NCBI GenBank assembly: GCA_964590395.1
Contig: CAZPVT010000006.1
Coordinates: 4,093-68,092, forward strand
From: an uncultured bacterium
Lineage (GTDB): Bacteria > Hydrothermota > Tepidihabitantia > Tepidihabitantales > Tepidihabitantaceae
Direction: 5' to 3'
Length of the DNA stretch: 64,000 nucleotides
This document shows, one piece after another, positions 14,685 through 48,548 of this stretch. How positions within the stretch are numbered: the first letter of the stretch is position 1; every line of letters begins with the position of its first letter. A model generated the notes under the pieces. That model was given only the letters and a program-made list of their open reading frames with translations, was not told the origin of the DNA and ran no database searches. A program made the translations under genes and the position numbers.

Positions 14685-15035
14685 TGGAGGCGGCGGGAAT
14701 CGAACCCGCGTCCGAAGCGTTCAGTACCCAGGTTCTACATAGTTAGTCAGTCTATATTTCTCATCGCCTACTAAGCCGACTGACAGGCGGTAGCCGACCA
14801 GCCCCAGTAAAAATCCGGCTGCCATCCTGAGGCACAATAACAGCCTTGATCACCCTACTATACCCGCAACCAGCGCCGGGTGAAACTCGCTGGTCCAGGG
14901 GCTACCTTGCTTTAGGAAGCCAGTGCATAGCTGCTATTGGCAGCTGTAGTTCCTCTGTTGTTATTAACGAGGCAACAGAGGAGCCTCGCTATGCCCCTGA
15001 GTCCCTCAGTCACTTCGTCGAAACCATTCGCCCCC
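14685..15035 (-). ncRNA. ssrA: tmRNA (SsrA)
   Basis: 5' end GGGGGCGAAUGGUUUCGACG and 3' tRNA-like end GGACGCGGGUUCGAUUCCCGCCGCCUCCA on the minus strand. The acceptor stem pairs (GGGGGCG / CGCCUCC). An internal tag-like frame ends in a stop. Confidence 0.85.
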
Positions 15036-35535: not shown

Positions 35536-37137
35536 TTATCTATTAATAAGCACCTTTAATCTACTGCCTCTACCCTGCACCAGATAAACACCTGCGGGCA
35601 ACAGATTGCCGTGGCTATCACTGCCATCCCAGATCACCTGTTTCTGCGCCAGTGCCTCCCATACCCTCCTACCATCGCTGGAATAAATCTCAATCAGTTC
35701 TGGCTTATCAGCACTCAAAACGATCTCAGCCTTATTCCGGAACGGATTGGGCTTAAAACCTATCACTACCCGTTTTGCCGGTTCTGGCATATCCTCAATC
35801 CCAACCTGACTGGAGTCAAAAGTGATGTCGCAGATAATTGTGTCGCCCACCTCCCGGATATTCCGCACACTCACCCAGGTCGGCTGATTGTTCCTTGCCT
35901 TGCTTGACGGGTTTGACCAGTTGTCAAAACTTGTCCGGTTCCAGATTCCAGGTAAAGGATCAGAGGTATCACCCAGCGCCTCATGATAGATATGCGGGTC
36001 AGGTCTTACACCGCTACCACGGTCCAGGTGATAGGTTGAATCCTCCTCCAGGTCAACCCGATTGTGATCGGCGCTATAATACGGATCAATATGCCAGATT
36101 AACAGTCCAGAACCGGGCAACGGTGCATCAAAACCCTTTTTCTGCCGGTTTTCCAAAAGAAAACAGGTATCAGAATCTCTACCCTGTCGCCACACCTTGT
36201 AAACAACCGGATGGGTCTCAACATCTAAAATCCGCAAACCAAATGTATCCCGGGTTATCACCACCGGCTGGACAAAACCTGCCTCAACCTTGCTCCACGC
36301 CTCCATATGTGATGGGCTCCAGGGTGTATTACCACCTGCGCCCCATGCACCATAACCCATCAAACCCCAGTAACCGATACCCCAACTGTTTCGGCTGTAA
36401 TCATAAAGGTCAGGCAATCCTACTAAATGTCCGAGTTCATGGCACATCACCGCAATACAGCAAAGTGTGGTATCTCTGCTCTCGGTAACCATTGCAAACT
36501 CCGGCACATTGGTAACACCATCAATTATCACCCCATCATTTGTCCGGTAATTAAAATACGGTATCGCGTGCGACCACAGGCAATTAACATCGCCGTTATC
36601 CGCACCATCCGCACCTGCATGCACCATAAACATCGCCTCAATATGCCCATCACCGTTAACATCAAAATCCTGGAAATCAATAAACGAATCAACCTGCTGT
36701 AAATTCTCCCTTGCCAGTTGTCTGCCAGTTGATAGCATATAATTCCCATCGTAATAACGGGAATAGTTGTATCTCGACATAAACCAGCGGTTACCCGCAA
36801 CTCCACCCCGCACCGAGTACCGACCATACGAGTTTTCTAAAAAGAAATCATTCAAACTCCCTGCCCGATAAGGCTGACCATTATAAACCCCGACCGAATA
36901 AAGCATAGAATCAAACCTTGCCGGTGAATGTCTGATTGTATCTGCCCGGTTATCCGAAAACTGCATCAGAATCGTAACCGTCTCGCAAAAATCATAGTCC
37001 TTCAGTTTATTCGGACCCGGAACCTCAACACCCGCAGGAAAAACCGGTGCTGGTCCCCAAAAACCGGGCTTGGGTGGCATTGCTAATGAAATACTGAAAA
37101 CCAGTAAAAACACTGCTGTTAGCCTCATATTTCTCAT
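35536..37137 (-). CDS. M6 (immune inhibitor A-like) zinc metallopeptidase with T9SS C-terminal sorting domain
   Basis: HELGHLVGLPDLYD zinc-binding motif in an InhA-like context. Signal peptide. C-terminal CTD (EIYSSDGRRVWEA...GVYLVQGRG). Confidence 0.75.
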   Translation of the reverse strand: MRNMRLTAVFLLVFSISLAMPPKPGFWGPAPVFPAGVEVPGPNKLKDYDFCETVTILMQFSDNRADTIRHSPARFDSMLYSVGVYNGQPYRAGSLNDFFLENSYGRYSVRGGVAGNRWFMSRYNYSRYYDGNYMLSTGRQLARENLQQVDSFIDFQDFDVNGDGHIEAMFMVHAGADGADNGDVNCLWSHAIPYFNYRTNDGVIIDGVTNVPEFAMVTESRDTTLCCIAVMCHELGHLVGLPDLYDYSRNSWGIGYWGLMGYGAWGAGGNTPWSPSHMEAWSKVEAGFVQPVVITRDTFGLRILDVETHPVVYKVWRQGRDSDTCFLLENRQKKGFDAPLPGSGLLIWHIDPYYSADHNRVDLEEDSTYHLDRGSGVRPDPHIYHEALGDTSDPLPGIWNRTSFDNWSNPSSKARNNQPTWVSVRNIREVGDTIICDITFDSSQVGIEDMPEPAKRVVIGFKPNPFRNKAEIVLSADKPELIEIYSSDGRRVWEALAQKQVIWDGSDSHGNLLPAGVYLVQGRGSRLKVLINR

Positions 37138-37404
37138 TCCTTAAGTGTTTTACTATACCATGACAAACACAGAAATCAACAATCCAATATAAAAACGCGC
37201 TCACTGCTATAGGATGATCTGGACGCCGTACTGGCAATTACTGCTGTATCCGGTAGACGTAGAAACTGGCAACCATCCTGCCACTCCAGACTATCCTTAT
37301 CATACCTCTCTGTTGACAAATCGCAAAATAATTTATAACATTCTAAAATGCGTGATATAATCCAGCACATAGCAAGCAAAGGAACAAAATATCGGCAGTA
37401 ACTA

Positions 37405-37902
37405 ATGACTAAGATGAAACTGATTGTCCCACTTATAATCGGTATAATAATAACTATCTGCACAGCCCAACAATTGTGGGTAGCAAGATACAACGGACCA
37501 GGAAATGGTTACGACGAAGCAACCGCGATTGCGGTCGATAATAGTGGCAATGTTTATGTCACAGGCTGGAGTATTGGTTCAGGCACTTATGAGGATTATG
37601 CAACGGTAAAGTGTGGTAGTGGTTCTATCCTTGAAGAAAACAGGACGACGGCACAGTTAAAACAGGAATGGCTAATCCCGACTCTGATAAAGGATGAGTT
37701 GTTAATACGCTTTAATCAATCAGTAGAAAAATCTCTCTCGTTATTTATTTATAACGCACTGGGCGAAAAGTTGCGTTCCTCCCCGATTGAAAAGGGAACA
37801 GAAACAATGTGCTTATCCTTGAGCGGTTTAAGAACGGGTACCTACTTCATAAAATCTAATAACAGGACCATCAAACCTGTAAAAGTGACCTTAACAAGAT
37901 AA
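37405..37902 (+). CDS. short SBBP-repeat protein with T9SS-type C-terminal domain (possible truncated paralog of the 61517.. gene)
   Basis: One beta-propeller SBBP-like repeat ([32 protein letters not shown]), then directly a CTD-like tail. Confidence 0.5.
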
Positions 37903-38090
37903 AACCTCGTATTATACCAGCCTTCGTCTCCTCTATCATTTTACCCGCTACCATAAGTCAAATTTTTGTTTAGATTTTTAATGAAACACTGTGGCAGTTT
38001 GACAATACCGAAAACTTGGCTATTGTTATATAGCAGGATATGATGATCAATAAGAGGCTACTAATAGTAGACCGCGGGTAAGGTGAGCAG

Positions 38091-39267: not shown

Positions 39268-41883
39268 ATGTTATTATCGCTTGTTCTTATCTTAACTACC
39301 GCAAAACCGCAACTCTCTGACTTCCTCTCCCGCCAGGATTACTCTACCGCCGCTCAATACTATTATCAGCAGATTCAGCGCCAGCCGAAAAACCTTTCCG
39401 CTATTAAAAACCTTGCCCGGGTTTACGACCACTGGCGCAGGTTTGACTCCAGTTTATACTGGTGGGAAAAAGCCTTTCAACTTCAGCCCGATGATGACTC
39501 GGTTATAGTTGGCAGATGGCGGGCGCTATACAACTTTCACAAAAAGGACAGTGCACAACTTGATTCAATTAAGAAATTACTCGAAACCGAACTCCTCCGC
39601 ATCTTCGTCTATCCTGATACCAGTTATCGCAGTATTAGCCTTGCCTATCAGGGATTTGTCCTGATTGAAGACACAGTGCGTACCCGCCGCGCTGCCAATC
39701 TCCTTACCCACCTCTATCCGGACTCTGCTATCTCCTACGAGATAATCGGCAGCGCATTTTATGACTCCCTCTATCCGGTCTGGAATAACGACACCGCCAA
39801 ATTACTGGTCATCTCCAACTTCCTTGCCCGCTATCCAAAAACCGAATGGCGCCAGACATTTTATATTTATCTATTAAGCTCCCTCTTTAATCTCAAGGAC
39901 ACCCTGAGTCTTGTCTCAATGACCCACCGGATGCTCAAAGAGGATTCGCTTGACCCATTCCGCTACCGGTATGCCTCTGCCATCTTTAACCGGCTGAAGT
40001 TCCATCCCGAACTTGCCGAACTTTATGCCCGAAAGGCAATTGAACTGGAACCAAAGGCAAAAAAACCGAAAAATAAACCCCAGGAACAGTGGCAACTTGA
40101 ATACCCACCCCTATATGGTCTTGCCCGGGTTGCCCTTACCGAAGCGCTTTTGCTTCAGAACCGGCCAGCAGAGGCGCTTCCCTATCTTTATCAGGCAATT
40201 CAGAACTTCTCCTGGGACCCGGATAATGAGATGACCCCTGCCCCCTACTACTGCCTCCTTGGTGAAGCCTACGAAAAACTGGGCAAGACCGACAGCGCAA
40301 AAATCGCCTATCTTAAAACCCTGGTCTTTGGTGACTCCCGCAACTACTATACCAGCCGTGCGGACACCAATCTCCAGCGTCTCGGCGTAAGACAAAACGA
40401 ACAGTTAACCCTTGCCCGCGAGATTTTAAATTATACCGGTCCGGTCTTCACCGATGTCACCGAAGCATACGGCCTGGAAAACCGGCGCGAGTCACGGGTT
40501 GCCTGGGGCGATTATAATAATGACGGTTATGAGGATCTCCTCTTAAATGGCTGCCGTCTTTTCCGCAACGACTCGGGCAGGTATTTTACCGATGTAACCG
40601 ATTCCGCCGGCTTAACCGGCATTACCGGCAGGGGTGGTATCTTTGCGGACTTTAACAACGACTACTGGCTTGACCTTTATGTCTGCGGTGCGGATACTCA
40701 AGACTACCTGCTTCTGAACCGATTCGGCAGACTCTTTGACCTCACCGAATCGCTCGGCTCTCCATCTGATCCTTATCCTACCGAAGGCTGTGCGGTTGCC
40801 GACTACGATCAGGATGGCTGGCTTGACATCTACTGCGCCAACTACGAAAACTGGGAAAAACGGATCTATTATCCGGACCATCTTTATAAAAACGAACTGG
40901 GCAGATTCAAAAATATAACCAAAACCACCGGCATAATCCCGCCCTATAACGAAGACCTTGCGGGCAGAGGGGTCAACTGGTGCGATTACGACGACGACAC
41001 CTATCTGGACTGCTATGTCTCCAACTACCGCCTGTGTCAAAACCTGCTCTGGCACAACAACCGCGACGGCACATTTACCAACCTTGCTCCGAAACTGGGC
41101 ATTGCCGGCGATGAAGTAAAAGGCTACTTTGGCCATACGATCGGCTCGGTCTGGCAGGACTTTGACAACGACGGCGACTGGGACCTATTCTGTGCCAACC
41201 TTGCCCATCCCCGCTACATCGAATTCTCCAACCGTTCAACTCTTTACGAAAACCGCGGACCAAAGGCAAACCCGCAATTTATTGACCGGCGCGCCCAACT
41301 CGGCATCCGCTACGAAGAGACCCACTCAGACCCGGCATTTGCCGATGTGGACAACGACGGCGATTTAGACCTTTACCTGACATCTATCTACGAAAACAGG
41401 CGCTCATTTTTATACCTCAACCAGTTAAACCCGGATCCCGCACCTGCAATTGACTTTGGCAACTACCGGTTCCAGGAGGTAACCTATCTTGCCGGGGTCC
41501 GTGCCTTTAACGGCTGGGGCTGTGCCTTCTCGGACTTTGACAACGACGGTGATCTGGACCTGGTGGTTGGCTCGGGCTCGGGCCTGCGCCTCTTTCGCAA
41601 CGACACCAAAAACGAAAACAACTGGCTCAAGGTCAAGGTTATCGGCACCAAACACAACACAAGCGGTATCGGTGCGAAGGTTACGGTCATTCAGGGCAAA
41701 AAAAGGTATATCCGGCAGGTGGAAGGTGGCAAAGGCACAACCAGCCAGAACTCACTCGTTCAGCACTTCGGCCTGGGCAAATCAAAAGCGCCAATAACCG
41801 TGGAGGTCCGTTTTGGCAAGGATTCTCAGGTAACCCTGAAAAATGTCCAGCCCAACCAGATGCTGATTGTAACCGAGCCCTAA
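39268..41883 (+). CDS. TPR-repeat + FG-GAP/VCBS-like repeats + C-terminal ASPIC/UnbV domain protein (CRTAC1 family-like)
   Basis: N-terminal TPR-like helices. Repeated ...DxDxDGxxD... FG-GAP-like motifs (YNNDGYEDLLL, FDNDGDLDLVVG). C-terminal UnbV_ASPIC-like domain. Confidence 0.7.
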   Translation: MLLSLVLILTTAKPQLSDFLSRQDYSTAAQYYYQQIQRQPKNLSAIKNLARVYDHWRRFDSSLYWWEKAFQLQPDDDSVIVGRWRALYNFHKKDSAQLDSIKKLLETELLRIFVYPDTSYRSISLAYQGFVLIEDTVRTRRAANLLTHLYPDSAISYEIIGSAFYDSLYPVWNNDTAKLLVISNFLARYPKTEWRQTFYIYLLSSLFNLKDTLSLVSMTHRMLKEDSLDPFRYRYASAIFNRLKFHPELAELYARKAIELEPKAKKPKNKPQEQWQLEYPPLYGLARVALTEALLLQNRPAEALPYLYQAIQNFSWDPDNEMTPAPYYCLLGEAYEKLGKTDSAKIAYLKTLVFGDSRNYYTSRADTNLQRLGVRQNEQLTLAREILNYTGPVFTDVTEAYGLENRRESRVAWGDYNNDGYEDLLLNGCRLFRNDSGRYFTDVTDSAGLTGITGRGGIFADFNNDYWLDLYVCGADTQDYLLLNRFGRLFDLTESLGSPSDPYPTEGCAVADYDQDGWLDIYCANYENWEKRIYYPDHLYKNELGRFKNITKTTGIIPPYNEDLAGRGVNWCDYDDDTYLDCYVSNYRLCQNLLWHNNRDGTFTNLAPKLGIAGDEVKGYFGHTIGSVWQDFDNDGDWDLFCANLAHPRYIEFSNRSTLYENRGPKANPQFIDRRAQLGIRYEETHSDPAFADVDNDGDLDLYLTSIYENRRSFLYLNQLNPDPAPAIDFGNYRFQEVTYLAGVRAFNGWGCAFSDFDNDGDLDLVVGSGSGLRLFRNDTKNENNWLKVKVIGTKHNTSGIGAKVTVIQGKKRYIRQVEGGKGTTSQNSLVQHFGLGKSKAPITVEVRFGKDSQVTLKNVQPNQMLIVTEP

Positions 41884-41971
41884 AAAACTTGATTGGTTTT
41901 ATTAAGACAATAAAATTGTCTGTTAATTTGCCATCTATTTACACCCTGATGCTAAAATACATTATTATTAA

Positions 41972-42109
41972 TTATCCATCCTCTTCCTGTGTATGTTCGT
42001 TCGGTTTAGGTTCTGTTTTTTCTGGTTGACCTGAAGGATTAGTAACAGGTGGATCGGGAGGCACAAAGCCTTTCTCTTTCTTTTGCACTTTTTTATCCAT
42101 AGACTTCAT
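41972..42109 (-). CDS. small ORF (45 aa, Lys/Pro/Glu-rich), translationally coupled to the upstream membrane-protein gene
   Basis: ATG 2 nt after the stop of the 42112..42585 gene. Low-complexity MKSMDKKVQKKEKGFVPPDPPVTNPSGQPEKTEPKPNEHTQEEDG. It is below the ORF-track length cutoff and was found by eye. Confidence 0.25.
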   Translation of the reverse strand: MKSMDKKVQKKEKGFVPPDPPVTNPSGQPEKTEPKPNEHTQEEDG

Positions 42110-42111
42110 AT

Positions 42112-42585
42112 TTAACCACCTTCGGATCTAATTCTGCATAAATTCGTACCGACAAATACGGCAAGCGAAATTATTCCTAATATAAATGCAATTAGTGAAA
42201 ACAAATTGAGAAATGAGGTCCATCGTGCCAATGTATTCTTTTGCTTTAATGCGTCCCTTTCCCCTTTTTGGTCGGCATCCAGCATATCACGGTATCGCCG
42301 AAGTGATCGGATACTGAACTTGAAACTTAACATTATAGTGAACAACGAAAACAACAATAATCCCCAGGCGCTAAATAATATCCATAGATATTTAGGGGAG
42401 GGCGCTATTAACCTGATAAATGTAATTGACAATCCCAATGCACCGCTTGACAGTGTTATAATGGCTTTATCAAATGTCTTTGTCGATTCTAATTCTAAAT
42501 TAATATTAATTTTTCGTTCGTCCAAATATACATCTTTAGGTAACTCTGGCAATTGTGAGGATTTTTGTGTCTCAGGGCAATTCAT
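42112..42585 (-). CDS. hypothetical membrane protein (3 predicted TM helices)
   Basis: Three hydrophobic segments after a ~50-aa soluble N-terminus. AT-rich gene. Its start is 15 nt after the GIY-YIG gene stop. Confidence 0.45.
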   Translation of the reverse strand: MNCPETQKSSQLPELPKDVYLDERKININLELESTKTFDKAIITLSSGALGLSITFIRLIAPSPKYLWILFSAWGLLLFSLFTIMLSFKFSIRSLRRYRDMLDADQKGERDALKQKNTLARWTSFLNLFSLIAFILGIISLAVFVGTNLCRIRSEGG

Positions 42586-42599
42586 AATAAATATGCGAT

Positions 42600-43361
42600 T
42601 TATGCCAATTTAACCCTGCCTTTTCGCAAGGCATCAAGCGAAATCCAGTTTCCGTCCTTTGTCTTGAACCGCCACCATGTCCAGCCATTTATAGACCGCC
42701 CTGTTGCTGCTTTTCCGGCTGATGACGGCGAATTAAATATTTTATTTTTCAACCTCTGCCAATCTGCGCTTCTGCTATCAAATGTGATTGTTCCATCTTT
42801 GCGTATTTGAGCAATGAATGTTTTCCCCTTGTATTCCATCCGAATGTGTAATCGCTTGAATACATATTCACTTAGTTTAGTTTTGTGTTTATTCGTTATT
42901 TTTCCTCTATCTTTTGCCCCCGATTTACTTTCTTCTTCTTCATCCGATATACTCCAACTCGTCCACTCTTCAATTTTTCGGTTTACACTTTCCCGCAAGC
43001 GTCGACGTAATTCATACATCAAGTCCTGTGAATCAATAAATTTACCTGTTACTCTATTCCCGGGCGGTTCTGCAATGCGAAGTATCAATGCTTCAAGCTC
43101 CTTCAGATGCTCATCGCCTTCGGTCAGATAGATACTGAAGCGGTTCCATTTGCCAGAATGGCGGTCACGCATATGACTGCGTAATCTCGATCGCAGATTT
43201 CTTGCTAATCCAACGTAATAAAGACGGTCATTCTTGTAAAGCGCATAGACGCCGTTTTTTCTTCTGATAAAATCGCGAATAACCTCAGGGGATTCGTCCA
43301 GCACTTCCCCAGCAACCCCCTCAAGATGCTGAACAACCAAACGCGTTGGTCTATATTTCAT
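42600..43361 (-). CDS. GIY-YIG nuclease-domain protein with DUF4357-like C-terminal domain
   Basis: GVYALYKNDRLYYVGLARNLRSRLRSH GIY-YIG motif. C-terminal FNSPSSAGKAATGRSINGWTWW motif that I recall as characteristic of DUF4357. Confidence 0.6.
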   Translation of the reverse strand: MKYRPTRLVVQHLEGVAGEVLDESPEVIRDFIRRKNGVYALYKNDRLYYVGLARNLRSRLRSHMRDRHSGKWNRFSIYLTEGDEHLKELEALILRIAEPPGNRVTGKFIDSQDLMYELRRRLRESVNRKIEEWTSWSISDEEEESKSGAKDRGKITNKHKTKLSEYVFKRLHIRMEYKGKTFIAQIRKDGTITFDSRSADWQRLKNKIFNSPSSAGKAATGRSINGWTWWRFKTKDGNWISLDALRKGRVKLA

Positions 43362-43521
43362 CAGTCACCCTTTTTATCAAACTTGAATTTCCGTTAGGAG
43401 AAATTTGACTGTATAGATATATCACGCAACATAACATCATTACTATTAACATTAACTAAATTTAAAATACTTGTCAAGAACTTGTATAACTCAAACACAT
43501 CTCCGAGATTTTGCCTTTTAG

Positions 43522-44859
43522 TTATCGGCTATTTCTCGGCTTGGCGCGGGATTTCTGAGCGAAATTAATCTTTAACGGTTTCAGGAACTGGTAGTATTGA
43601 TAACCGATATCCCGGGTGATTTCCGCTCCATTTTCAATAGGTTCATCGGCAGACTCACGGGAAATTCTTTTCAACTCCCTTTTTGCCAGTCCGTAAAAGG
43701 GGTTCAGTTCCAGTGCAATCTTTAGGAATAATTTAGCCGCACCCGATTCGCCCCGAACAAGATGGCAGGTTGCCTTATTGGCATAGACCCGGAAGATTTC
43801 CGGATAGGTAATTCTATTCTCCAAGAGGAAGGCAAAAAACCGGTTGATTCTCTTCAGGGCAGTGTCAAAATCCTCATTACTCAGCGATTCAATCACCTGA
43901 TGATATTTCTTATACATCGGCGGAATCGGATTTTTGGAAATGGTCAGATTTATATCGGGCAAGAGACCCTTTTCATTGGACTCCTTGACCTTCTCCAACG
44001 GGGTTTTATCACCCAATTTCTTTTGCGGGCAGAAACGGTAAAATCGTGCCAGCCTTTCCAGTATCAAAGCCACGGCAACATCATAGTCCATTCGGTCCGG
44101 TGGTAGTAAACTGAATATCAGATTCAGCAAAGCCGGAAATTCACCCACCGATTCATTATAAATCCATTCTTTAATTGTTGCCGTGTCAACAAATTTATTA
44201 AGACCAAACCTAAAGAGGACTTCTTGCAGGGCAACCTCCGCCTCCTTTAGGGTGGAAATCTCCCTAGGGACCTCCGCCTCGCCTTCCCTGCTTAAAATGT
44301 TACTCCAGATCACCTTGGGATTCCAATTCTCTTTTGAGCCGCGGAAGACCCTTTCCACCTCCGGGCTCATTTTGATTGGCGGCAACGGTGGTGCCGTGCT
44401 TACCAGTTCATAATGCTCTCCCACCTTTGCCACCCGGCCCGGAAATACCTGTCCCGCTGTGACACAAAAGGTTAACTGGTACTCTTTGACCCAATAGACC
44501 TTGCCGGTCTGAATGTTTTCCAAGAGTAGCCCCTCGCCCAATCTGACCTCTTTTATTTTATAAAAACCATAGCAGTTATCCTGCAGTTGCTTATAAACCT
44601 CAAGCCGGGCATCGTTCAAATTATCGGGGTTGGTTAAATAAAAGTCCTCAATAGGTGTCCGGCCATTGCTCAGTTTAAAATCATATACAAACCATTCGTT
44701 GAATAACCCGGATTCCACCTCGTCGCGGATTTTGATTTCATTAATCGGCGCTGAGGGGCTTAAATCAAAAAACTCTCTTAATGCGCCCAGGATATCCGGG
44801 TGAAATTTCGGATTAGAAAAATAATAATTCAAAATCATCTTAATCGTTCCGGGTTCCAT
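43522..44859 (-). CDS. hypothetical protein (445 aa; C-terminal TPR-like helices)
   Basis: Long ORF in low-GC island context. No motif recognised. Confidence 0.45.
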   Translation of the reverse strand: MEPGTIKMILNYYFSNPKFHPDILGALREFFDLSPSAPINEIKIRDEVESGLFNEWFVYDFKLSNGRTPIEDFYLTNPDNLNDARLEVYKQLQDNCYGFYKIKEVRLGEGLLLENIQTGKVYWVKEYQLTFCVTAGQVFPGRVAKVGEHYELVSTAPPLPPIKMSPEVERVFRGSKENWNPKVIWSNILSREGEAEVPREISTLKEAEVALQEVLFRFGLNKFVDTATIKEWIYNESVGEFPALLNLIFSLLPPDRMDYDVAVALILERLARFYRFCPQKKLGDKTPLEKVKESNEKGLLPDINLTISKNPIPPMYKKYHQVIESLSNEDFDTALKRINRFFAFLLENRITYPEIFRVYANKATCHLVRGESGAAKLFLKIALELNPFYGLAKRELKRISRESADEPIENGAEITRDIGYQYYQFLKPLKINFAQKSRAKPRNSR

Positions 44860-44930
44860 AATTTATATATAAATATTAAAAACCATTTGACTAAATTCAA
44901 ATACCCGCATTCTATTCCATTCCATTTATG

Positions 44931-45620
44931 TCAATCATCGGAGTTTGAACTGCCGGCACGATTTAATATCTCGCCAATCGCCATTTTGAGAATCTTGAAG
45001 TTTTCATTCAGATAGTATTTCCTGAACTCGGCATCAAGCAGAGAACCCAATTTGACCGTATAATCACGCCGGGTCAACTGGTCAATTCCGCGCTGAAGTT
45101 TTCTAACTATCCCGACATCTTCGGGCAGGTTCACCCCATTTTTAATTATAAACTCAATGTCAAACACATCCCTTATTTCCCGGCGTACCAGAAACGCATC
45201 AATCTTTGCCCGCAACATCTCATTTAATTTCGGCACGGTCACCAGGACCTGTGTCGTGGCATAGCGACTGTAGGCAATCGCCCTTTCCAGTTCTATACGC
45301 CTGGGTTCTTTTCGGATCTCAATCTTAAGCCGGCGCAGATATTCAACCGACTTCAGTTCCAGAAGCAGAGTAAAAAACTTGCTCTGCCGGTCGGTAAGCG
45401 TGTAATAGCCGGAAAGAAAATCAGCCAGATTTAAAAAGAAGCGCCGGTAATTTAGTTCCTTATTTACCCAGAAATCCAGGTCAACCGAGAACCGGTTTAA
45501 GCCATAACACAGCCTTAGCATCGTTCCGCCCGTAAAAATCAACCGGCTCAGAAACCTGCCGCTGTTTAACCGGTCCAGCACCTCAATTTCAAACCGCTCC
45601 TGCTGAATCAAATCCCGCAT
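44931..45620 (-). CDS. AbiEii/AbiGii-family nucleotidyltransferase toxin (type IV TA)
   Basis: FTGGTMLRLCYGLNRFSVDLDF motif typical of DUF1814/AbiEii. Confidence 0.75.
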   Translation of the reverse strand: MRDLIQQERFEIEVLDRLNSGRFLSRLIFTGGTMLRLCYGLNRFSVDLDFWVNKELNYRRFFLNLADFLSGYYTLTDRQSKFFTLLLELKSVEYLRRLKIEIRKEPRRIELERAIAYSRYATTQVLVTVPKLNEMLRAKIDAFLVRREIRDVFDIEFIIKNGVNLPEDVGIVRKLQRGIDQLTRRDYTVKLGSLLDAEFRKYYLNENFKILKMAIGEILNRAGSSNSDD

Positions 45621-46204
45621 AGTTTTTCAATTACCTTTCTGGTTTTAACCGGGTAAACCCGGACAATCCGCTGCAACTCCTTTTTGTCCAACCGGCTAAG
45701 GTCAAGCGCGGCAAAATCAAGCCGGTATTTACCAAAGGAATAAAGATATAACGCATCAATCAGCGCCTTCTCCGGTGTGGCAATAAAAAAACCATCCTTT
45801 CTGAGAAAACTGAAATAAACACCTTTCTTTAACTTGTAATACACAAACTGCTTGCCCTGAATTTCAAACTGAACTGTCCTTTTCACCCCGCAACTTTCTA
45901 TATAACCCGGTTGGACCTGAGTTGTTATCCCGTAAAAACCAAGTGCGGTGGTTAAGGAAACATACGAAGGAACCTGCAGGATATTGGCAATCTGAAACAA
46001 CTCCACCTGGGAAAAACCCTGCCAATTCTGGGCTAATGTGTAAACCCCCTTTTTCAAACGGATAAAAACCCCCTTTTTACAGTTCCGGCTGACCAGCACC
46101 CTTATTGAACCCGGCTGTTTTTGCCCGATGCTTATCAGGTCATCTAAGGTAAAGAACAGTTTCCGGCTCAGCCGTTGTAATAACGCCCATTCCTTATTAA
46201 GCAT
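45608..46204 (-). CDS. AbiEi-family antitoxin / transcriptional regulator
   Basis: Located immediately upstream of, and overlapping, the AbiEii gene. Its ~200-aa size and N-terminal wHTH-like region fit AbiEi. Confidence 0.55.
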   Translation of the reverse strand: MLNKEWALLQRLSRKLFFTLDDLISIGQKQPGSIRVLVSRNCKKGVFIRLKKGVYTLAQNWQGFSQVELFQIANILQVPSYVSLTTALGFYGITTQVQPGYIESCGVKRTVQFEIQGKQFVYYKLKKGVYFSFLRKDGFFIATPEKALIDALYLYSFGKYRLDFAALDLSRLDKKELQRIVRVYPVKTRKVIEKLCGI

Positions 46205-46376
46205 AGATAGTTAACAATTCTGTTAATTATATATCCCTACAACCGCTGGTCAACTATCTGCGAAATCCTGTTTTGACTTGGCATTCTCGGTTTTAATCAG
46301 ATACCAGCCATTTGATAGTAGCTTTACCTCTCTAATCTGGCGGCGAAATTTACCTCTGCCCCAGTATTCACCAACC

Positions 46377-47961
46377 TTAATTTCTTTCACGTTTCACCTC
46401 GTAAATAATTAGATACTGATGGGTTAATTTAAGATAACCATTAAAATCGGGCAAAGTCCCTTGACTCTCTTTAACTAACACGATTATCTCTTTGAGCGCC
46501 AATTGCTGATTATCAACAAGATCAACAATCCTTTTTGCCAATTGCTCAATAAAACCATTTATCCGAACATCTTGAGTTTGAATCGCCACAAACCCGTTAT
46601 CTTTCATTGTCGACACCAACCCATTGACTATCTCCTCTATCTTCCCCAGATACTCATCAACCGAAAAACCTGATTGCCACTGAGACCATCCTGGTGATTT
46701 GATATAAAGTAAACCCATTTCGCCTTTGATCCTTCCGGGTTTAACTTCGCCCTTTCGCCTGCCAGTACTATCCAGCATCACGCTCAAACAGTCTCCTCCC
46801 GTTCCATAACGGGCAAGAACATTACTATCCAGCGACCGGTCAAACTCCTCCTCCGGGAAAACCCAGACCGTGGTGGTCTGAAAAGTTTTCATTCTTTCGC
46901 TGATAATTGGCACCTTTTTTAACACCAGCGGTTTACTAATTACCTCCCTTACCTGTGCCTGATATTCACGTCTGGCATCAACCGGCTTTTCGAAAATCGG
47001 CAGATACTCATGGGCAAGAAGAAGAAAGTTATGCTCAATACTGCTTTTATACCAGAAACCGGTGGTTTTGCAGTTGTGCTGACGCTTGATCACCAATTCG
47101 CGCAACTTAAAACCCGCGGAAAGATAAACATTGATAAGTTCAAACCCCAGAGGTAAAATATGTCTCTTCCGACGCAAATCACCGATCAATATTGCACATT
47201 GTCGGCCTGGTTTCAAAACCCGAAAACTCTCCTCCGCCACATCTCTCATTGCGGCTAAAAAATCATCAACATCAAGTAACGAGAGATCTCCTTCCTTACC
47301 ATCGGTATAATGAATAATGTTTGCATAAGGTGGATGGGCACAGATTAAATCCACTGAGTTGACTTCTAAAAAAGATAGATTCCTGGCATCCCCAACTAAA
47401 AGTTCTGGCTCATAAACTGAAGAATCCAACTCATCACCGGTTAATTTCAACTGGGGGGCTAAAACATTAAATGCGAGATTCCGCCGTGCCAGTTCAATTG
47501 CCTTTTCGTTGATATCCAGTGCAATACACCGCCGGCCAAGAAGTTTTACACTCAATCGCAGTTGTCCCTGCTCCACAGAAATAATCTAAAACCAACTCGT
47601 TGGGTTGAGAATAACGGAGTATTACATTCCTTGGTATATACGGGGACCAGTTACCCCGATACTCCCCACTATGCGTTGCCCAATTTCCTCTTTGTTTGAA
47701 ACTCCATACTGTTGTCGTTTCCAAAATAAACCCTACCGGCTGAAGTTGTTTTATTCTGTTTTCCGGCTTTAATCGGCTAACATTCAACCCATGTGTCTTG
47801 GTAATCAGTCTCTCAATGTATCTGAAGGTTACCCCGTATTTTTTACCAATCTCAACATCCGGCGTTCCCTTTGTCTTCTCGAGCAAAATCGCCTGATCCA
47901 CTGAACTTTTACTTTGCTTTCTCACTCTGCTTGACATACCTAACCTTATTAAACATATCAA
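46377..47961 (-). pseudogene. N4/N6 DNA methyltransferase disrupted by a +1 frameshift in an A4 run (two overlapping ORFs)
   Basis: The upstream ORF ends ...VLDYFCGAGTTAIECK in frame A. Frame B continues LLGRRCIALDINEKAIELARRNL ... DLICAHPPY (motif IV-like). Deleting one A at 47544-47547 (coding-strand AAAA) fuses them into a ~528-aa MTase with an N-terminal HTH. Confidence 0.65.
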
Positions 47962-48000
47962 TAACCAAAAGTCAATAAGGTTTTCCCTTACTGTGAAATA

Positions 48001-48396
48001 TCACTCCTCGGGCTCGGGCACCGCAAACGCCTCGTCCCGGATGCGCTCCAGAACCTGCCGGTCCAAGGTCCTTGCCACCCATTTCTCAAGTAGGACATTC
48101 ACTTCCCGCACCAAGGAAGGTCCGGAAAACTTAAGCATCCGGCTGAAAATCTCCCGGGCAAAGTTGAGATAAAATGGATACAAAATCGTCGGCACATCTG
48201 CGGAGTTAAGCACCTGTTTTGCCCGGGTCTCAATCGCCACCAGCAGCGCCTGCGCCGCCTCGGTGTTGCGCTCCATTGAACCCCGCATATCCTTAAGCGT
48301 GGCACAGACCCTTTCCGGTCGGGTCTTCACCCGCCACTTTTCTATCCTTTTAACTGTATCATTTTTCATCTTAAACTCCTTTCGTTTTGCCTTCAC
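48001..48396 (-). CDS. hypothetical protein (131 aa)
   Basis: An ORF with coding character immediately upstream of the methyltransferase. Confidence 0.35.
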   Translation of the reverse strand: MKAKRKEFKMKNDTVKRIEKWRVKTRPERVCATLKDMRGSMERNTEAAQALLVAIETRAKQVLNSADVPTILYPFYLNFAREIFSRMLKFSGPSLVREVNVLLEKWVARTLDRQVLERIRDEAFAVPEPEE

Positions 48397-48548
48397 TATA
48401 TAAGATGCCGGAAACTCCCGATTATTAACACATAATTTTAATGTAAATATAAGTATTTGTTTTTGAAAATATTAATTAAATATATAATAAAATTTCTAAG
48501 ATAATACCCTGCCCGGGGCTTGCCCCCTGGCGGTTAACAGGACAGTGG

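What the first reader, a model, noticed from the sequence alone, without database searches (positions are those of the whole stretch)
41884..48548. Low-GC accessory island packed with defence-type genes between the CRTAC1-like gene and the ICMT gene
Base composition drops sharply, with runs of AT-rich sequence at both borders. Every gene is on the minus strand. Contents: a GIY-YIG/DUF4357 nuclease, a 3-TM protein plus micro-ORF, a 445-aa unknown protein, an AbiEi/AbiEii type IV TA pair, a frameshifted N4/N6 DNA methyltransferase and a 131-aa unknown protein. No integrase or transposase and no obvious att direct repeat was found by eye. It therefore looks like an old or decaying defence island rather than an active mobile element.
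Basis: partly seen in the sequence, partly recalled or inferred. Interest (0 to 1): 0.65.

Follow-up and report, generated by a model that had tools for sequence, protein, structure and literature searches.

The report
Variable defence-gene hotspot, partly decayed
This stretch is a gene-swapping hotspot in an uncultured WOR-3-type bacterium: it holds one intact abortive-infection toxin-antitoxin pair, one candidate nuclease module and a broken restriction-modification system, which makes it an ordinary defence island documented in unusual detail.

Summary
Window 41884-48548 has the lowest GC of any stretch that size in the 64 kb (0.426 vs 0.481). There is no integrase, transposase, att repeat or adjacent tRNA.

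Related metagenome contigs show a mosaic hotspot, not a single island:
- **Oldest layer:** AbiEii-AbiEi plus a DNA methyltransferase (MTase) with a 193-aa partner gene. Close relatives have deleted one or both.
- **Later insertion:** about 3.0 kb (41884-44927), carrying the micro-ORF, the 3-TM gene, a GIY-YIG-RAMA nuclease and the 445-aa TPR protein.
- **Right edge:** the 131-aa gene is conserved in every relative, so it is core. The variable region ends near 48000.

Decay affects only some genes. The MTase partner is cut to a 46-aa stump by a ~450-nt deletion. The MTase frameshift is one extra T at 47544; two of three 99.8-99.95% identical assemblies carry the intact 519-aa gene. The 445-aa gene is frameshifted in all three of those assemblies. 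AbiE, the nuclease and the 3-TM gene are intact and under purifying selection.

An MTase cassette 99.6% identical between diverged lineages shows that exchange continues. This is a new member of a known kind, of modest interest.

The parts
41884..44927 (-). Later-inserted ~3.0-kb module (micro-ORF, 3-TM gene, GIY-YIG-RAMA gene, 445-aa gene). It lies between the CRTAC1-like stop codon and the abiEii stop codon.
   Evidence: L028, L029 and L035 have only ~27 nt here. Homology to them is lost right after the TAA at 41883 and resumes at 44928. The same left junction is present in L072.
41972..42109 (-). 45-aa micro-ORF, probably not a real gene.
   Evidence: No family. dN/dS is 1.2 and the length differs (45 vs 49 aa) against L072.
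42112..42585 (-). 157-aa membrane protein with three hydrophobic segments, starting 14 nt downstream of the nuclease gene. Function unknown.
   Evidence: Hydropathy peaks at about residues 41-61, 66-88 and 122-147. No family except a weak DUF2721 hit below cutoff. 97.5% aa identity and dN/dS 0.16 against L072. Lowest GC3 in the window, 0.354.
42600..43361 (-). 253-aa GIY-YIG nuclease fused to a C-terminal RAMA/DUF4357 DNA-binding domain. It belongs to the PADLOC candidate family PDC-S14.
   Evidence: Pfam RAMA 36.2 bits and GIY-YIG 23.4 bits, both just above cutoff. PDC-S14 E=2e-12. Catalytic G37, Y39, Y49, G51, R59, E88/E90 and N102 are conserved in 32 homologues. AF2 model pLDDT 76; Foldseek matches UvrC GIY-YIG and R.Eco29kI for the N-terminal half and MPND-DNA and the CcrM C-terminus for the C-terminal half.
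43522..44859 (-). 445-aa protein of unknown function: helical N-terminus, small beta-barrel, helical middle, C-terminal TPR. Intact in this window.
   Evidence: No Pfam, PADLOC, NCBIfam or PHROG hit. AF2 pLDDT 84, with only TPR matches in PDB and BFVD. Frameshifted in L069 (+A at 43833) and in L070/L071 (-C at 44598). The family is under purifying selection against L027, dN/dS 0.19.
44931..45620 (-). abiEii: DUF1814 nucleotidyltransferase toxin of a type IV TA / abortive-infection pair.
   Evidence: Pfam AbiEii E=4e-17; PADLOC AbiEii E=6e-87, full length. Motifs I-IV are present: GG31-32, R43, D47xD49, K139IDAFLVR, R150DVFD, as defined in PMC3985639. dN/dS 0.17 against L028.
45608..46204 (-). 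abiEi: antitoxin and autorepressor. It overlaps abiEii by 13 nt.
   Evidence: PADLOC AbiEi E=1e-29. NCBIfam TAA_AbiEi E=6e-7 and Pfam AbiEi_4 E=0.002, both below cutoff. dN/dS 0.22.
46205..46259 (-). abiE promoter with putative operator: TTGACC (46253-46248), 16 nt, TATAAT (46231-46226). Inverted arms AGATAGTTGAC (46259-46249) and GTTAACTATCT (46215-46205). Inner palindrome TTAACAGAATTGTTAA (46226-46211).
   Evidence: Best promoter-like site in the region, 11 of 12. Coordinates. Conserved in L028, L029, L030 and L035. The layout matches the inverted-repeat operators described for AbiEi (PMC3985639).
46250..46390 (-). 46-aa stump of the MTase's downstream partner gene (193 aa when intact).
   Evidence: The first 43 codons align with L035:732-1313 and L028:4550-5032. 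About 450 nt are missing up to just before the partner's stop codon.
46377..47961 (-). DNA methyltransferase gene, 519 aa when intact: N-terminal HTH-like region, MTase core with motif I before motif IV, and a C-terminal degenerate second MTase-like domain. Here it is split into 155-aa and 399-aa ORFs.
   Evidence: PADLOC MTase_II PDLC03376 matches colinearly across both ORFs. The intact allele is in L026/L069 and L071. Internal similarity of the C-terminal 200 aa to the core, E=5e-5. dN/dS 0.20.
47544..47544 (.). The frameshift itself: one extra T (TTTT vs TTT; AAAA vs AAA on the coding strand).
   Evidence: Alignment with L026/L069 and L071, which have TTT and an intact gene; L070 shares TTTT.
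48001..48369 (-). Conserved 122-aa gene (131 aa from an upstream GTG). It is the core edge of the hotspot, not cargo.
   Evidence: Present next to the ICMT-like gene in L028, L029, L030, L035 and the WOR-3 MAG L063, at 63-89% aa identity. GC3 0.66. dN/dS 0.14-0.23.

Best explanation
The region is a chromosomal hotspot for accessory genes, mostly defence genes, in an uncultured bacterium related to candidate division WOR-3. It lies where the CRTAC1-like gene (+ strand) converges on a conserved minus-strand block (405-aa gene, ICMT-like gene, 122-aa gene). Cargo is exchanged module by module, by recombination with relatives and by illegitimate insertion and deletion. No element-encoded integrase is involved.

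The window holds three layers:

1. **Restriction-modification-like cassette, now dead.** This is the MTase plus a translationally coupled 193-aa partner, inferred to be the restriction endonuclease. The partner is truncated to 46 aa, which left an orphan MTase. In this strain the MTase also carries a 1-nt frameshift.
2. **An intact AbiE type IV toxin-antitoxin / abortive-infection pair.** By analogy with characterised AbiE systems, AbiEi represses the promoter through the inverted repeats and neutralises AbiEii. AbiEii is a GTP-binding nucleotidyltransferase that arrests growth when released. This mechanism is inferred from family membership, not shown here.
3. **A later 3.0-kb insertion.** It carries an intact GIY-YIG-RAMA nuclease (inferred to be a stand-alone DNA-cleaving defence enzyme whose RAMA domain supplies DNA or modified-DNA recognition), a co-transcribed 3-TM protein, and a 445-aa TPR protein that the population is currently losing.

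Shown: the anatomy, the variability, the deletions and frameshifts, the selection signals, and the conserved motifs and folds. Inferred: the nuclease role of the partner, any phage-defence activity, and the recombination mechanism.
For: **Variable cargo between conserved flanks**
- L028 has AbiE + MTase + partner but lacks the 3-kb module.
- L035 has MTase + intact partner, plus an AbiE deletion scar.
- L029 has only scars, about 270 nt in total.
- L030 has scars plus an unrelated PKD-domain gene inserted at the same spot.
- L072/L073 keep the nuclease and 3-TM genes but lack AbiE and most of the 445-aa gene.
- The WOR-3 MAG L063 has the same right flank, different cargo and a 61%-identical GIY-YIG-RAMA gene.
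- L029, L030 and L035 are 98-99.7% identical in the flanks yet differ in cargo.

**Ongoing exchange**
- The MTase is 99.6% identical between L028 and L035, whose 122-aa and ICMT genes are 70-79% identical.
- AbiE dS between the window and L028 is 0.20-0.29, against 0.67-1.09 for the flanking genes.

**Decay limited to certain genes**
- The partner is truncated here, carries a 99-nt in-frame deletion in L028, and is absent in L029/L030.
- Five of the 7 database hits to the partner stump are 45-128-aa fragments.
- Across four assemblies that are 99.8-99.95% identical, the only three indels all fall in the MTase or the 445-aa gene.

**Intact modules**
- dN/dS is 0.16-0.36 for AbiE, the nuclease and the 3-TM gene.
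- All AbiEii motifs and the promoter inverted repeats are present.
- The GIY-YIG catalytic residues and both folds are confirmed.

**Defence association of the nuclease family**
- PADLOC PDC-S14.
- Homologues lie inside a type I R-M operon after hsdS and next to HNH and HEPN_AbiV genes.

**No mobility signals**.
Against: - The 193-aa partner has no detectable nuclease motif, family or solved relative. Its structure could not be predicted here. Calling the cassette an R-M system therefore rests on context and on its pattern of loss.
- A phage contig carries the same MTase type without the partner, so the MTase can exist as an orphan.
- Cargo at the hotspot is not only defensive: a PKD protein in L030, and LVIVD and GH114 genes in L063.
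- The 445-aa family occurs elsewhere in non-defence settings, for example next to rpsG in L027.
- No experiment links any of these genes to phage resistance in this organism.
- All the relatives are metagenome contigs, so the lineage relationships are inferred from short flanks only.
Confidence: 0.8

Rival explanations
1. The region is the remnant of a single integrated mobile element (prophage, ICE or integrative island). It arrived in one event and has since lost its integrase and att sites.
For: The low-GC block has sharp borders, all genes run in one direction, and defence genes are typical cargo of such elements. A homologue of the MTase lies on a viral contig.
Against: Relatives carry the modules in different combinations, with nested scars. 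GC3 is heterogeneous, and AbiE and the 445-aa gene are compositionally native. There is no integrase, transposase, att repeat, adjacent tRNA or phage-family hit. Unrelated genes have inserted at the same spot in L030 and L063.
Confidence: 0.07
2. The frameshifts in the MTase (and in the 445-aa gene in sister assemblies) are sequencing or assembly errors at short homopolymers. The genes are really intact, and the only true decay is the partner deletion.
For: Two of the three indels sit in short runs: T3/T4 at 47544 and A6/A7 at 43833. The read data could not be inspected.
Against: The T4 allele occurs in two different assemblies (the window and L070), which differ from each other by 8 SNPs and another indel. 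The -C allele at 44598 also occurs in two assemblies (L070 and L071) and is not a homopolymer run of note. No indel occurs anywhere in the 6-14 kb of flanking core genes compared. Random errors would be spread evenly.
Confidence: 0.12
3. The single-base length changes are phase variation. Slippage at short homopolymers would reversibly switch the MTase (a phasevarion-like epigenetic switch) and the 445-aa gene on and off.
For: Both ON and OFF alleles of both genes coexist among assemblies that are 99.8-99.95% identical. Every assembly has a different ON/OFF combination.
Against: The tracts are very short (T3/T4, A6/A7, C1/C2), whereas known contingency loci usually use runs of 8 or more. One site is not a true homopolymer. 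The MTase has already lost its partner, which fits ordinary orphan decay.
Confidence: 0.06
4. The AbiE pair is not a phage-defence system here. It acts as an addiction module that merely stabilises itself or the neighbouring DNA.
For: AbiE systems stabilise plasmids and ICEs (PMC3985639; PMC11062541). In relatives the pair is only ever lost by one deletion that removes toxin and antitoxin together. That is what an addictive pair predicts.
Against: It sits in a locus enriched for restriction-type genes, and AbiE was first defined by phage resistance. The two roles are not exclusive. The pair was nevertheless lost in the L029/L030/L035 clade and in L072/L073, so any stabilisation is weak.
Confidence: 0.3

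Closest known systems
Core defence hotspots / defence islands between conserved chromosomal genes (e.g. Pseudomonas aeruginosa core defence hotspots, PMC10250203)
   Same: The flanking core genes are fixed and the cargo varies between close relatives. The cargo is enriched in restriction, Abi and TA genes. No dedicated integrase is present, and turnover is inferred to occur by recombination in the flanks.
   Different: This one is in an uncultured WOR-3-type lineage known only from metagenomes. It is very small, from about 0.3 kb when empty to 6 kb. Its cargo includes non-defence genes in some relatives. The succession of insertions, scars and frameshifts can be read almost base by base.
AbiE type IV toxin-antitoxin / abortive infection system (Streptococcus agalactiae and Lactococcus AbiE; PMC3985639, PMC7319586)
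   Same: A bicistronic abiEi-abiEii operon with overlapping genes. The DUF1814 toxin has all four NTase motifs. The antitoxin matches AbiEi profiles. The promoter is bracketed by 11-nt inverted repeats.
   Different: The repeat sequence and spacing differ from the S. agalactiae operator. The motif I-II spacer is 14 residues rather than 15. No toxicity, GTP binding or phage resistance has been tested for this pair.
Type II restriction-modification systems decaying to orphan methyltransferases
   Same: The MTase gene is translationally coupled to a small downstream gene. The cassette transfers horizontally as a unit. The partner is repeatedly inactivated while the MTase persists, and the MTase itself then decays.
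   Different: The partner has no recognisable nuclease family, so it is not shown to be a restriction enzyme. The MTase has an unusual build: an HTH-like N-terminus, motif I before motif IV, an HPPY motif IV, and a C-terminal degenerate second MTase-like domain.
GIY-YIG-RAMA (DUF4357) fusion nucleases; PADLOC candidate PDC-S14; proposed 6mA-reading type IV restriction enzymes (PMC4738411, PMC11037411)
   Same: The same two-domain architecture with conserved catalytic residues. The family sits in R-M and defence neighbourhoods.
   Different: The family is uncharacterised. The methyladenine-reader role of RAMA is disputed (PMC11037411, citing work on MPND). Here the gene is paired with a conserved 3-TM protein, a pairing not seen in the other neighbourhoods examined.

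Membership tests
AbiE type IV TA / Abi system | Bicistronic operon, antitoxin gene first, with the genes overlapping or abutting | tested here: met
   abiEi 45608-46204 and abiEii 44931-45620 lie on the same strand and overlap by 13 nt.
AbiE type IV TA / Abi system | Toxin is a DUF1814 / DNA pol-beta-type NTase with motifs I-IV (hG[G/S]..DhD with an Arg, KLxAaxxR, +DxxD) | tested here: met
   Pfam PF08843 E=4e-17, above cutoff. Motifs found at residues 31-49, 139-146 and 150-154, against the definitions in PMC3985639.
AbiE type IV TA / Abi system | Antitoxin of the AbiEi family (N-terminal winged HTH plus C-terminal neutralising domain) | tested here: met
   PADLOC AbiEi PDLC02241 E=1e-29 over residues 12-184. 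The Pfam AbiEi_4 and NCBIfam hits are below their cutoffs.
AbiE type IV TA / Abi system | Inverted repeats in the promoter that serve as the AbiEi operator | tested here: met
   11-nt arms at 46259-46249 and 46215-46205 flank a strong -35/-10 and are conserved in relatives. Binding itself was not tested.
AbiE type IV TA / Abi system | Toxicity of AbiEii, neutralisation by AbiEi, and phage resistance | not testable with these tools
   This needs expression and phage assays.
Type II restriction-modification system | Intact DNA MTase with an AdoMet-binding motif I and a catalytic (D/N/S)PP(Y/F) motif IV | tested here: not met
   The gene is frameshifted in this window at 47544. The intact allele has motif I FCGAGTT but motif IV HPPY, conserved in L028, L029, L068 and L074. 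Its target base is unknown.
Type II restriction-modification system | Adjacent cognate restriction endonuclease | tested here: not met
   Only a 46-aa stump remains here. Whether the intact 193-aa partner is a nuclease is inconclusive: no family, PDB or PHROG hit.
GIY-YIG nuclease superfamily | GIY...YIG motifs, a catalytic Arg, a metal-binding Glu and a conserved Asn, on a GIY-YIG fold | tested here: met
   Pfam 23.4 bits against a 22.6 cutoff. G37, Y39, Y49, G51, R59 and E88/E90 are invariant and N102 near-invariant in 32 homologues. Foldseek matches UvrC GIY-YIG domains at probability 0.99, with weak E-values of 0.04.
RAMA / DUF4357 domain | C-terminal alpha+beta DNA-binding domain of the kind found in CcrM and MPND | tested here: met
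   Pfam RAMA 36.2 bits against a 35.2 cutoff. Foldseek best hits are the MPND-DNA complex 7ydw (E=4e-3, probability 1.0) and the CcrM 6pbd C-terminus.
PADLOC PDC-S14 (candidate single-gene defence system) | Match to the PDC-S14 profiles | tested here: met
   Five PDC-S14 profiles hit, the best at E=2e-12. The family is a candidate only. No validating paper was found.
Integrative mobile genomic island | Integrase or recombinase, flanking direct repeats (att), often a tRNA target | tested here: not met
   No such gene in or beside the region. No border repeats. The nearest tRNA is 2 kb away.
Chromosomal defence hotspot | Conserved flanking core genes with different cargo in related genomes, including an empty or near-empty state | tested here: met
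   Six different configurations occur in relatives, including a near-empty site of about 270 nt in L029.

The most novel reading that the evidence does not exclude
The GIY-YIG-RAMA protein may be a methyladenine-directed (type IV-like) restriction nuclease. On that reading, its arrival in the 3-kb insertion made the resident methyltransferase cassette a liability. The partner deletion and the recurrent MTase frameshifts in exactly this lineage would then record a conflict between a modification-dependent nuclease and a modification enzyme sharing one hotspot. A linked, less speculative reading is that the HTH-MTase-pseudoMTase protein plus its 193-aa partner form a new family of restriction-modification system.
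Probability: 0.1. Interest if true: 0.6.

Novelty: new member of a known kind. Interest (0 to 1): 0.3.

Why it matters
Defence hotspots are well described in cultured Proteobacteria. This locus shows the same organisation in an uncultured WOR-3-type lineage. Nearly every step is legible: insertion at a convergent intergenic spot, transfer of a cassette between lineages, loss of a toxin-antitoxin pair by single deletions, repeated loss of the MTase's partner gene before the methyltransferase, and frameshifts now segregating in the population.

It also flags three uncharacterised items that could be tested:
- a GIY-YIG-RAMA nuclease paired with a conserved 3-TM protein;
- an MTase with a degenerate second MTase-like domain and a small unknown partner;
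- a 445-aa TPR protein family found in variable regions.

None of this changes current concepts.

Tried and rejected
- **Exact-protein look-ups of the two flanking genes** found nothing.
- **The genome-contig scan** gave only a 2.2-kb close relative and distant Cloacimonadota MAGs with no synteny. The metagenome scan was what worked.
- **Border repeats and RNA elements:** none.
- **The 193-aa partner:**
  - No hit in Pfam, PADLOC, PHROGs, PDB by sequence or profile, or plasmids.
  - The word-index search with the 46-aa stump returned only itself.
  - The exhaustive search returned 7 hits, mostly fragments.
- **The 445-aa model** matched only TPR proteins in PDB and BFVD.
- **A literature search for an 'HPPY' MTase motif** found nothing relevant.
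- **Rejected:** programmed frameshifting in the MTase, because an intact allele exists and there is no slippery or stall context.
- **Rejected:** tRNA-Gln as an integration site, because it lies 2 kb outside and beyond two core genes.
- **Rejected:** the micro-ORF as a gene (dN/dS 1.2).

Full report

Yes. GC drops from 0.54 to 0.38 within 500 nt of the CRTAC1-like stop codon (41883) and recovers to 0.52 just right of 48500. The interval averages 0.426 against 0.481 for the rest of the window. It is the lowest-GC stretch of its size in the 64 kb, about 2.9 sd below the mean.

All ORFs of any size are on the minus strand.
- GIY-YIG plus RAMA/DUF4357 (253 aa).
- AbiEii (229 aa) and AbiEi (198 aa).
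- An N6_N4 MTase split into 155-aa and 399-aa ORFs.
- No family for the 157-aa, 445-aa and 131-aa proteins.

The 157-aa protein has three clear hydrophobic segments.

There are no border repeats, no Rfam match except an outside tRNA, no phage-family hits other than MTase and endonuclease, and no integrase or transposase in the JGI gene calls for 21 kb around the locus. The flanks are as described. The left gene is a TPR + FG-GAP/ASPIC protein. The right gene is a PEMT/ICMT-like membrane methyltransferase, although its hits are below the curated cutoffs.

Against a background GC3 of 0.508 +/- 0.053:

| Gene | GC3 |
|---|---|
| 3-TM gene | 0.354 |
| GIY-YIG gene | 0.402 |
| MTase | 0.41-0.42 |
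| 445-aa gene, abiEi, abiEii | 0.51-0.56 |
| 131-aa gene | 0.66 |

Only the first three are atypical. The 131-aa gene is more GC-rich than average.

**2. Comparison with relatives**

*Near-identical assemblies.* Three JGI metagenome contigs carry the same locus at 99.8-99.95% nt identity:
- L026/L069, sample 3300017449, 152 kb.
- L070, sample 3300010284.
- L071, sample 3300010308.

They have the same gene order as the window. This rules out a chimeric assembly.

*More distant relatives.* A metagenome scan with the CRTAC1-like protein found relatives at about 84-86% aa identity with downstream sequence. Mapping the window proteins onto them and aligning the junctions gives these configurations:

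| Locus | Configuration |
|---|---|
| L028 | CRTAC1 / AbiEii-AbiEi / partner (160 aa, 99-nt in-frame deletion) / MTase (517 aa) / 122-aa / ICMT. No 3-kb module. |
| L035 | AbiE reduced to a scar; intact MTase and intact 193-aa partner. |
| L029 | AbiE scar plus about 60-95 nt of the partner's 3' end. Only about 270 nt separate the CRTAC1 stop and the 122-aa gene. A diverged MTase + 185-aa partner + DUF3800 cassette lies on the other side of the 405-aa gene. |
| L030 | As L029, but with a PKD-domain secreted protein inserted at the same intergenic spot. |
| L072/L073 | 90-93% nt identity. The nuclease, 3-TM gene and micro-ORF are kept. AbiE is a scar, and only the last ~29 codons of the 445-aa gene remain. 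|
| L063 | A candidate division WOR-3 MAG. It has the 405-aa / ICMT / 122-aa block followed by LVIVD and GH114 genes and a 61%-identical GIY-YIG-RAMA gene. |

The AbiE scar consists of the first 20 codons of abiEi joined to the last ~16 codons of abiEii.

The flanks are contiguous elsewhere, and the cargo differs between relatives.

*Borders.* The 122/131-aa gene is present in every relative and is core. The variable region is about 41884-48000, not 41884-48548.

**3. History of the locus**

The oldest recognisable state is AbiE plus the MTase cassette. Scars of both survive in lineages that have lost them.

The 3.0-kb block 41884-44927 is a later insertion. It sits between the CRTAC1 stop and the abiEii stop, replacing about 25 nt of spacer.

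Exchange is recent:
- L029, L030 and L035 are 98.3-99.7% identical in the flanks yet carry three different cargo states.
- L028 and L035 share an MTase that is 99.6% identical, while their neighbouring 122-aa and ICMT genes are only 70-79% identical.
- AbiE between the window and L028 has dS of 0.20-0.29, against 0.67-1.09 for the flanking genes.
- L072/L073 look recombinant. Their promoter and scar resemble the L029 clade, while the nuclease module resembles the window. A second, window-type copy of the 'partner 3' end + -35' sequence sits at the joint. I could not fully resolve this.

Nothing indicates a site-specific recombinase. The insertion points cluster within about 50 nt of a convergent intergenic spacer but are not identical.

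**4. What is decaying and what is not**

*The partner gene.* The MTase's downstream partner is intact only in L035 (193 aa). In both versions of the cassette its start overlaps the MTase stop. In the window, a deletion of about 450 nt leaves 43 native codons (46250-46390). The deletion spares the abiE promoter precisely. Other alleles are also damaged:
- L028 has an internal 99-nt deletion.
- L029 and L030 lack nearly all of the gene.
- Five of the seven representatives found among 1.84 billion proteins are fragments of 45-128 aa, one of them internally deleted.

*The MTase frameshift.* It is a single extra T at 47544 (T4 vs T3). L069 and L071 have the intact 519-aa gene. L070 shares the broken allele.

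*The 445-aa gene.* It is intact only in the window. L069 has +A at 43833. L070 and L071 have -C at 44598.

*The overall pattern.* The three indels seen among the four assemblies all lie in these two genes. None lies in the 6-14 kb of core flanks compared. Every assembly has at least one of the two genes broken. This argues for relaxed or negative selection rather than random error, but the read data were not available.

*The intact genes.* By contrast, abiEi, abiEii, the nuclease gene and the 3-TM gene are intact in all four assemblies. Their dN/dS values are 0.22, 0.17, 0.36 and 0.16. The micro-ORF has dN/dS 1.2 and is probably not a gene.

**5. How the parts most likely work**

*AbiE.* The toxin has all four motifs that mutagenesis showed to be essential in S. 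agalactiae AbiEii: GG31-32, R43, D47/D49, K139..R146 and R150DxxD154 (PMC3985639). The promoter is the strongest sigma-70-like site in the region (11 of 12). It is bracketed by 11-nt inverted arms, with an inner palindrome over the -10/+1 region, conserved in relatives. This matches the AbiEi operator logic described in PMC3985639 and PMC7319586.

Inferred mechanism: AbiEi represses its own operon and neutralises AbiEii, and release of the GTP-binding nucleotidyltransferase arrests growth. This is not tested here. In relatives the pair is only ever lost by one deletion that removes both genes, which fits an addictive pair.

*MTase cassette.* The intact protein has four features:
- An HTH-like N-terminus.
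- An MTase core with motif I (FCGAGTT) ahead of motif IV (HPPY, conserved in all five homologues read).
- A colinear match to PADLOC MTase_II PDLC03376 (E=4e-89).
- A C-terminal ~200-aa region that is a degenerate copy of the MTase domain (pairwise E=5e-5).

The closest solved relatives are beta-class N4/N6 enzymes, matched in permuted order. A core-only homologue in Fusobacterium vincentii ends a Dam-like/DpnII-like cluster. A viral contig carries the core and the pseudo-domain among other MTases, without the partner.

I infer, at about 0.55, that the partner is the cognate endonuclease. The grounds are its translational coupling, its co-transfer with the MTase, its much faster divergence than the MTase (26% vs 54-77% identity in the paralogous cassette) and its repeated independent inactivation while the MTase persists. 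No sequence evidence supports a nuclease fold.

*GIY-YIG-RAMA.* The catalytic residues are conserved. The AF2 model (pLDDT 76) matches UvrC and R.Eco29kI GIY-YIG domains, and it matches the DNA-binding RAMA domains of MPND and CcrM. Homologues lie inside a type I R-M operon and beside HNH and HEPN_AbiV genes.

The fusion has been noted in the literature and proposed as a possible 6mA-sensing type IV enzyme, but it has not been characterised (PMC4738411; PMC11037411). PADLOC lists it only as candidate PDC-S14.

The tightly linked and strongly conserved 3-TM protein is not a neighbour in the other contexts I examined. Its role is unknown.

*445-aa protein.* The model is confident (pLDDT 84), but only the C-terminal TPR is recognisable. 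Homologues sit alone next to rpsG (L027), or near DUF6930, PRiA4_ORF3, DUF7309, PIF1, RhuM and Y1-transposase genes. The family is under purifying selection overall (dN/dS 0.19), yet it is being lost in this population. There is no evidence that it is a defence gene.

**6. Comparison with what is known, and verdict**

In organisation this is a chromosomal defence hotspot of the kind described in Pseudomonas (PMC10250203). It contains:
- a bona fide AbiE family member;
- an R-M-like cassette at the orphan-MTase-and-decay stage;
- a member of an uncharacterised candidate nuclease family.

It fails every test for an integrative mobile element.

It misses three things: the locus is a mosaic with ongoing exchange, half of it is well maintained, and the 131-aa gene is core.

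Novelty: a new member of a known kind. Interest is modest at 0.3. The value lies in the unusually complete record of gain and loss and in three testable unknowns, not in any new principle.

The most novel reading still open is a conflict between a methyl-directed GIY-YIG-RAMA nuclease and the resident MTase. I give it about 0.1. Intact copies of both genes coexist in two assemblies, and the MTase's target base is unknown.

Noticed in passing
L072:1-330 and L073:1-260: After the AbiE deletion scar there is a second, window-type copy of the ~70-nt 'partner 3' end + abiE -35' sequence. It is fused to the last ~29 codons of the 445-aa gene. This looks like a recombinant between two variants of the hotspot. 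The exact history was not resolved.
   Followed up: partly
L074:774-6162 (IMG/VR UViG_3300005573_000104): A 60-kb viral contig carries a homologue of the island MTase (core 73% identical, with the pseudo-MTase domain as a separate or shifted ORF). It sits in a cluster of at least three MTase genes and lacks the 193-aa partner.
   Followed up: partly
L068:1363-4729 (Fusobacterium vincentii NZ_CP084075): A 244-aa core-only homologue of the MTase (51% identity, also with an HPPY motif IV) sits at the end of a cluster of a Dam-like MTase, a DpnII-like endonuclease and an Mrr-like gene. The record is labelled a plasmid but is 2.1 Mb.
   Followed up: no
L029:5915-8949: A paralogous cassette lies on the far side of the 405-aa gene in a relative whose main hotspot is nearly empty. 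It comprises an MTase (518 aa), a 185-aa partner (26% identical to the L035 partner) and a DUF3800 protein.
   Followed up: partly
L030:2815-4422 and L063:2893-4871: Non-defence cargo occupies the same hotspot in relatives: a PKD/MAM-like secreted protein in L030, and LVIVD-repeat and GH114 genes in L063.
   Followed up: partly
window 46377-46976 (MTase residues ~320-519): The C-terminal 200 aa of the MTase are a degenerate duplicate of the MTase domain. The TTTVW and 'IKSP' stretches echo the motifs of the active domain. The duplicate is conserved in L028, L029 and the viral homologue.
   Followed up: partly
window 37405-37902 (+): A 165-aa gene with weak Por_Secre_tail/SBBP hits is another low-GC gene (GC 0.406, GC3 0.41). 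It lies in a second local GC dip at 36500-38000.
   Followed up: no
window 14685-15035 (-): ARAGORN calls a tmRNA with the tag peptide AMHWLPKAR*. That is an unusual tag, because tags usually end in hydrophobic residues such as LAA. The call may be imprecise.
   Followed up: no
L061:4487-12732 and L062:7674-9253: Homologues of the 445-aa protein sit among DUF6930, PRiA4_ORF3, DUF7309, PIF1-helicase, RhuM and Y1-transposase genes. This suggests the family travels in variable regions of unknown function.
   Followed up: no
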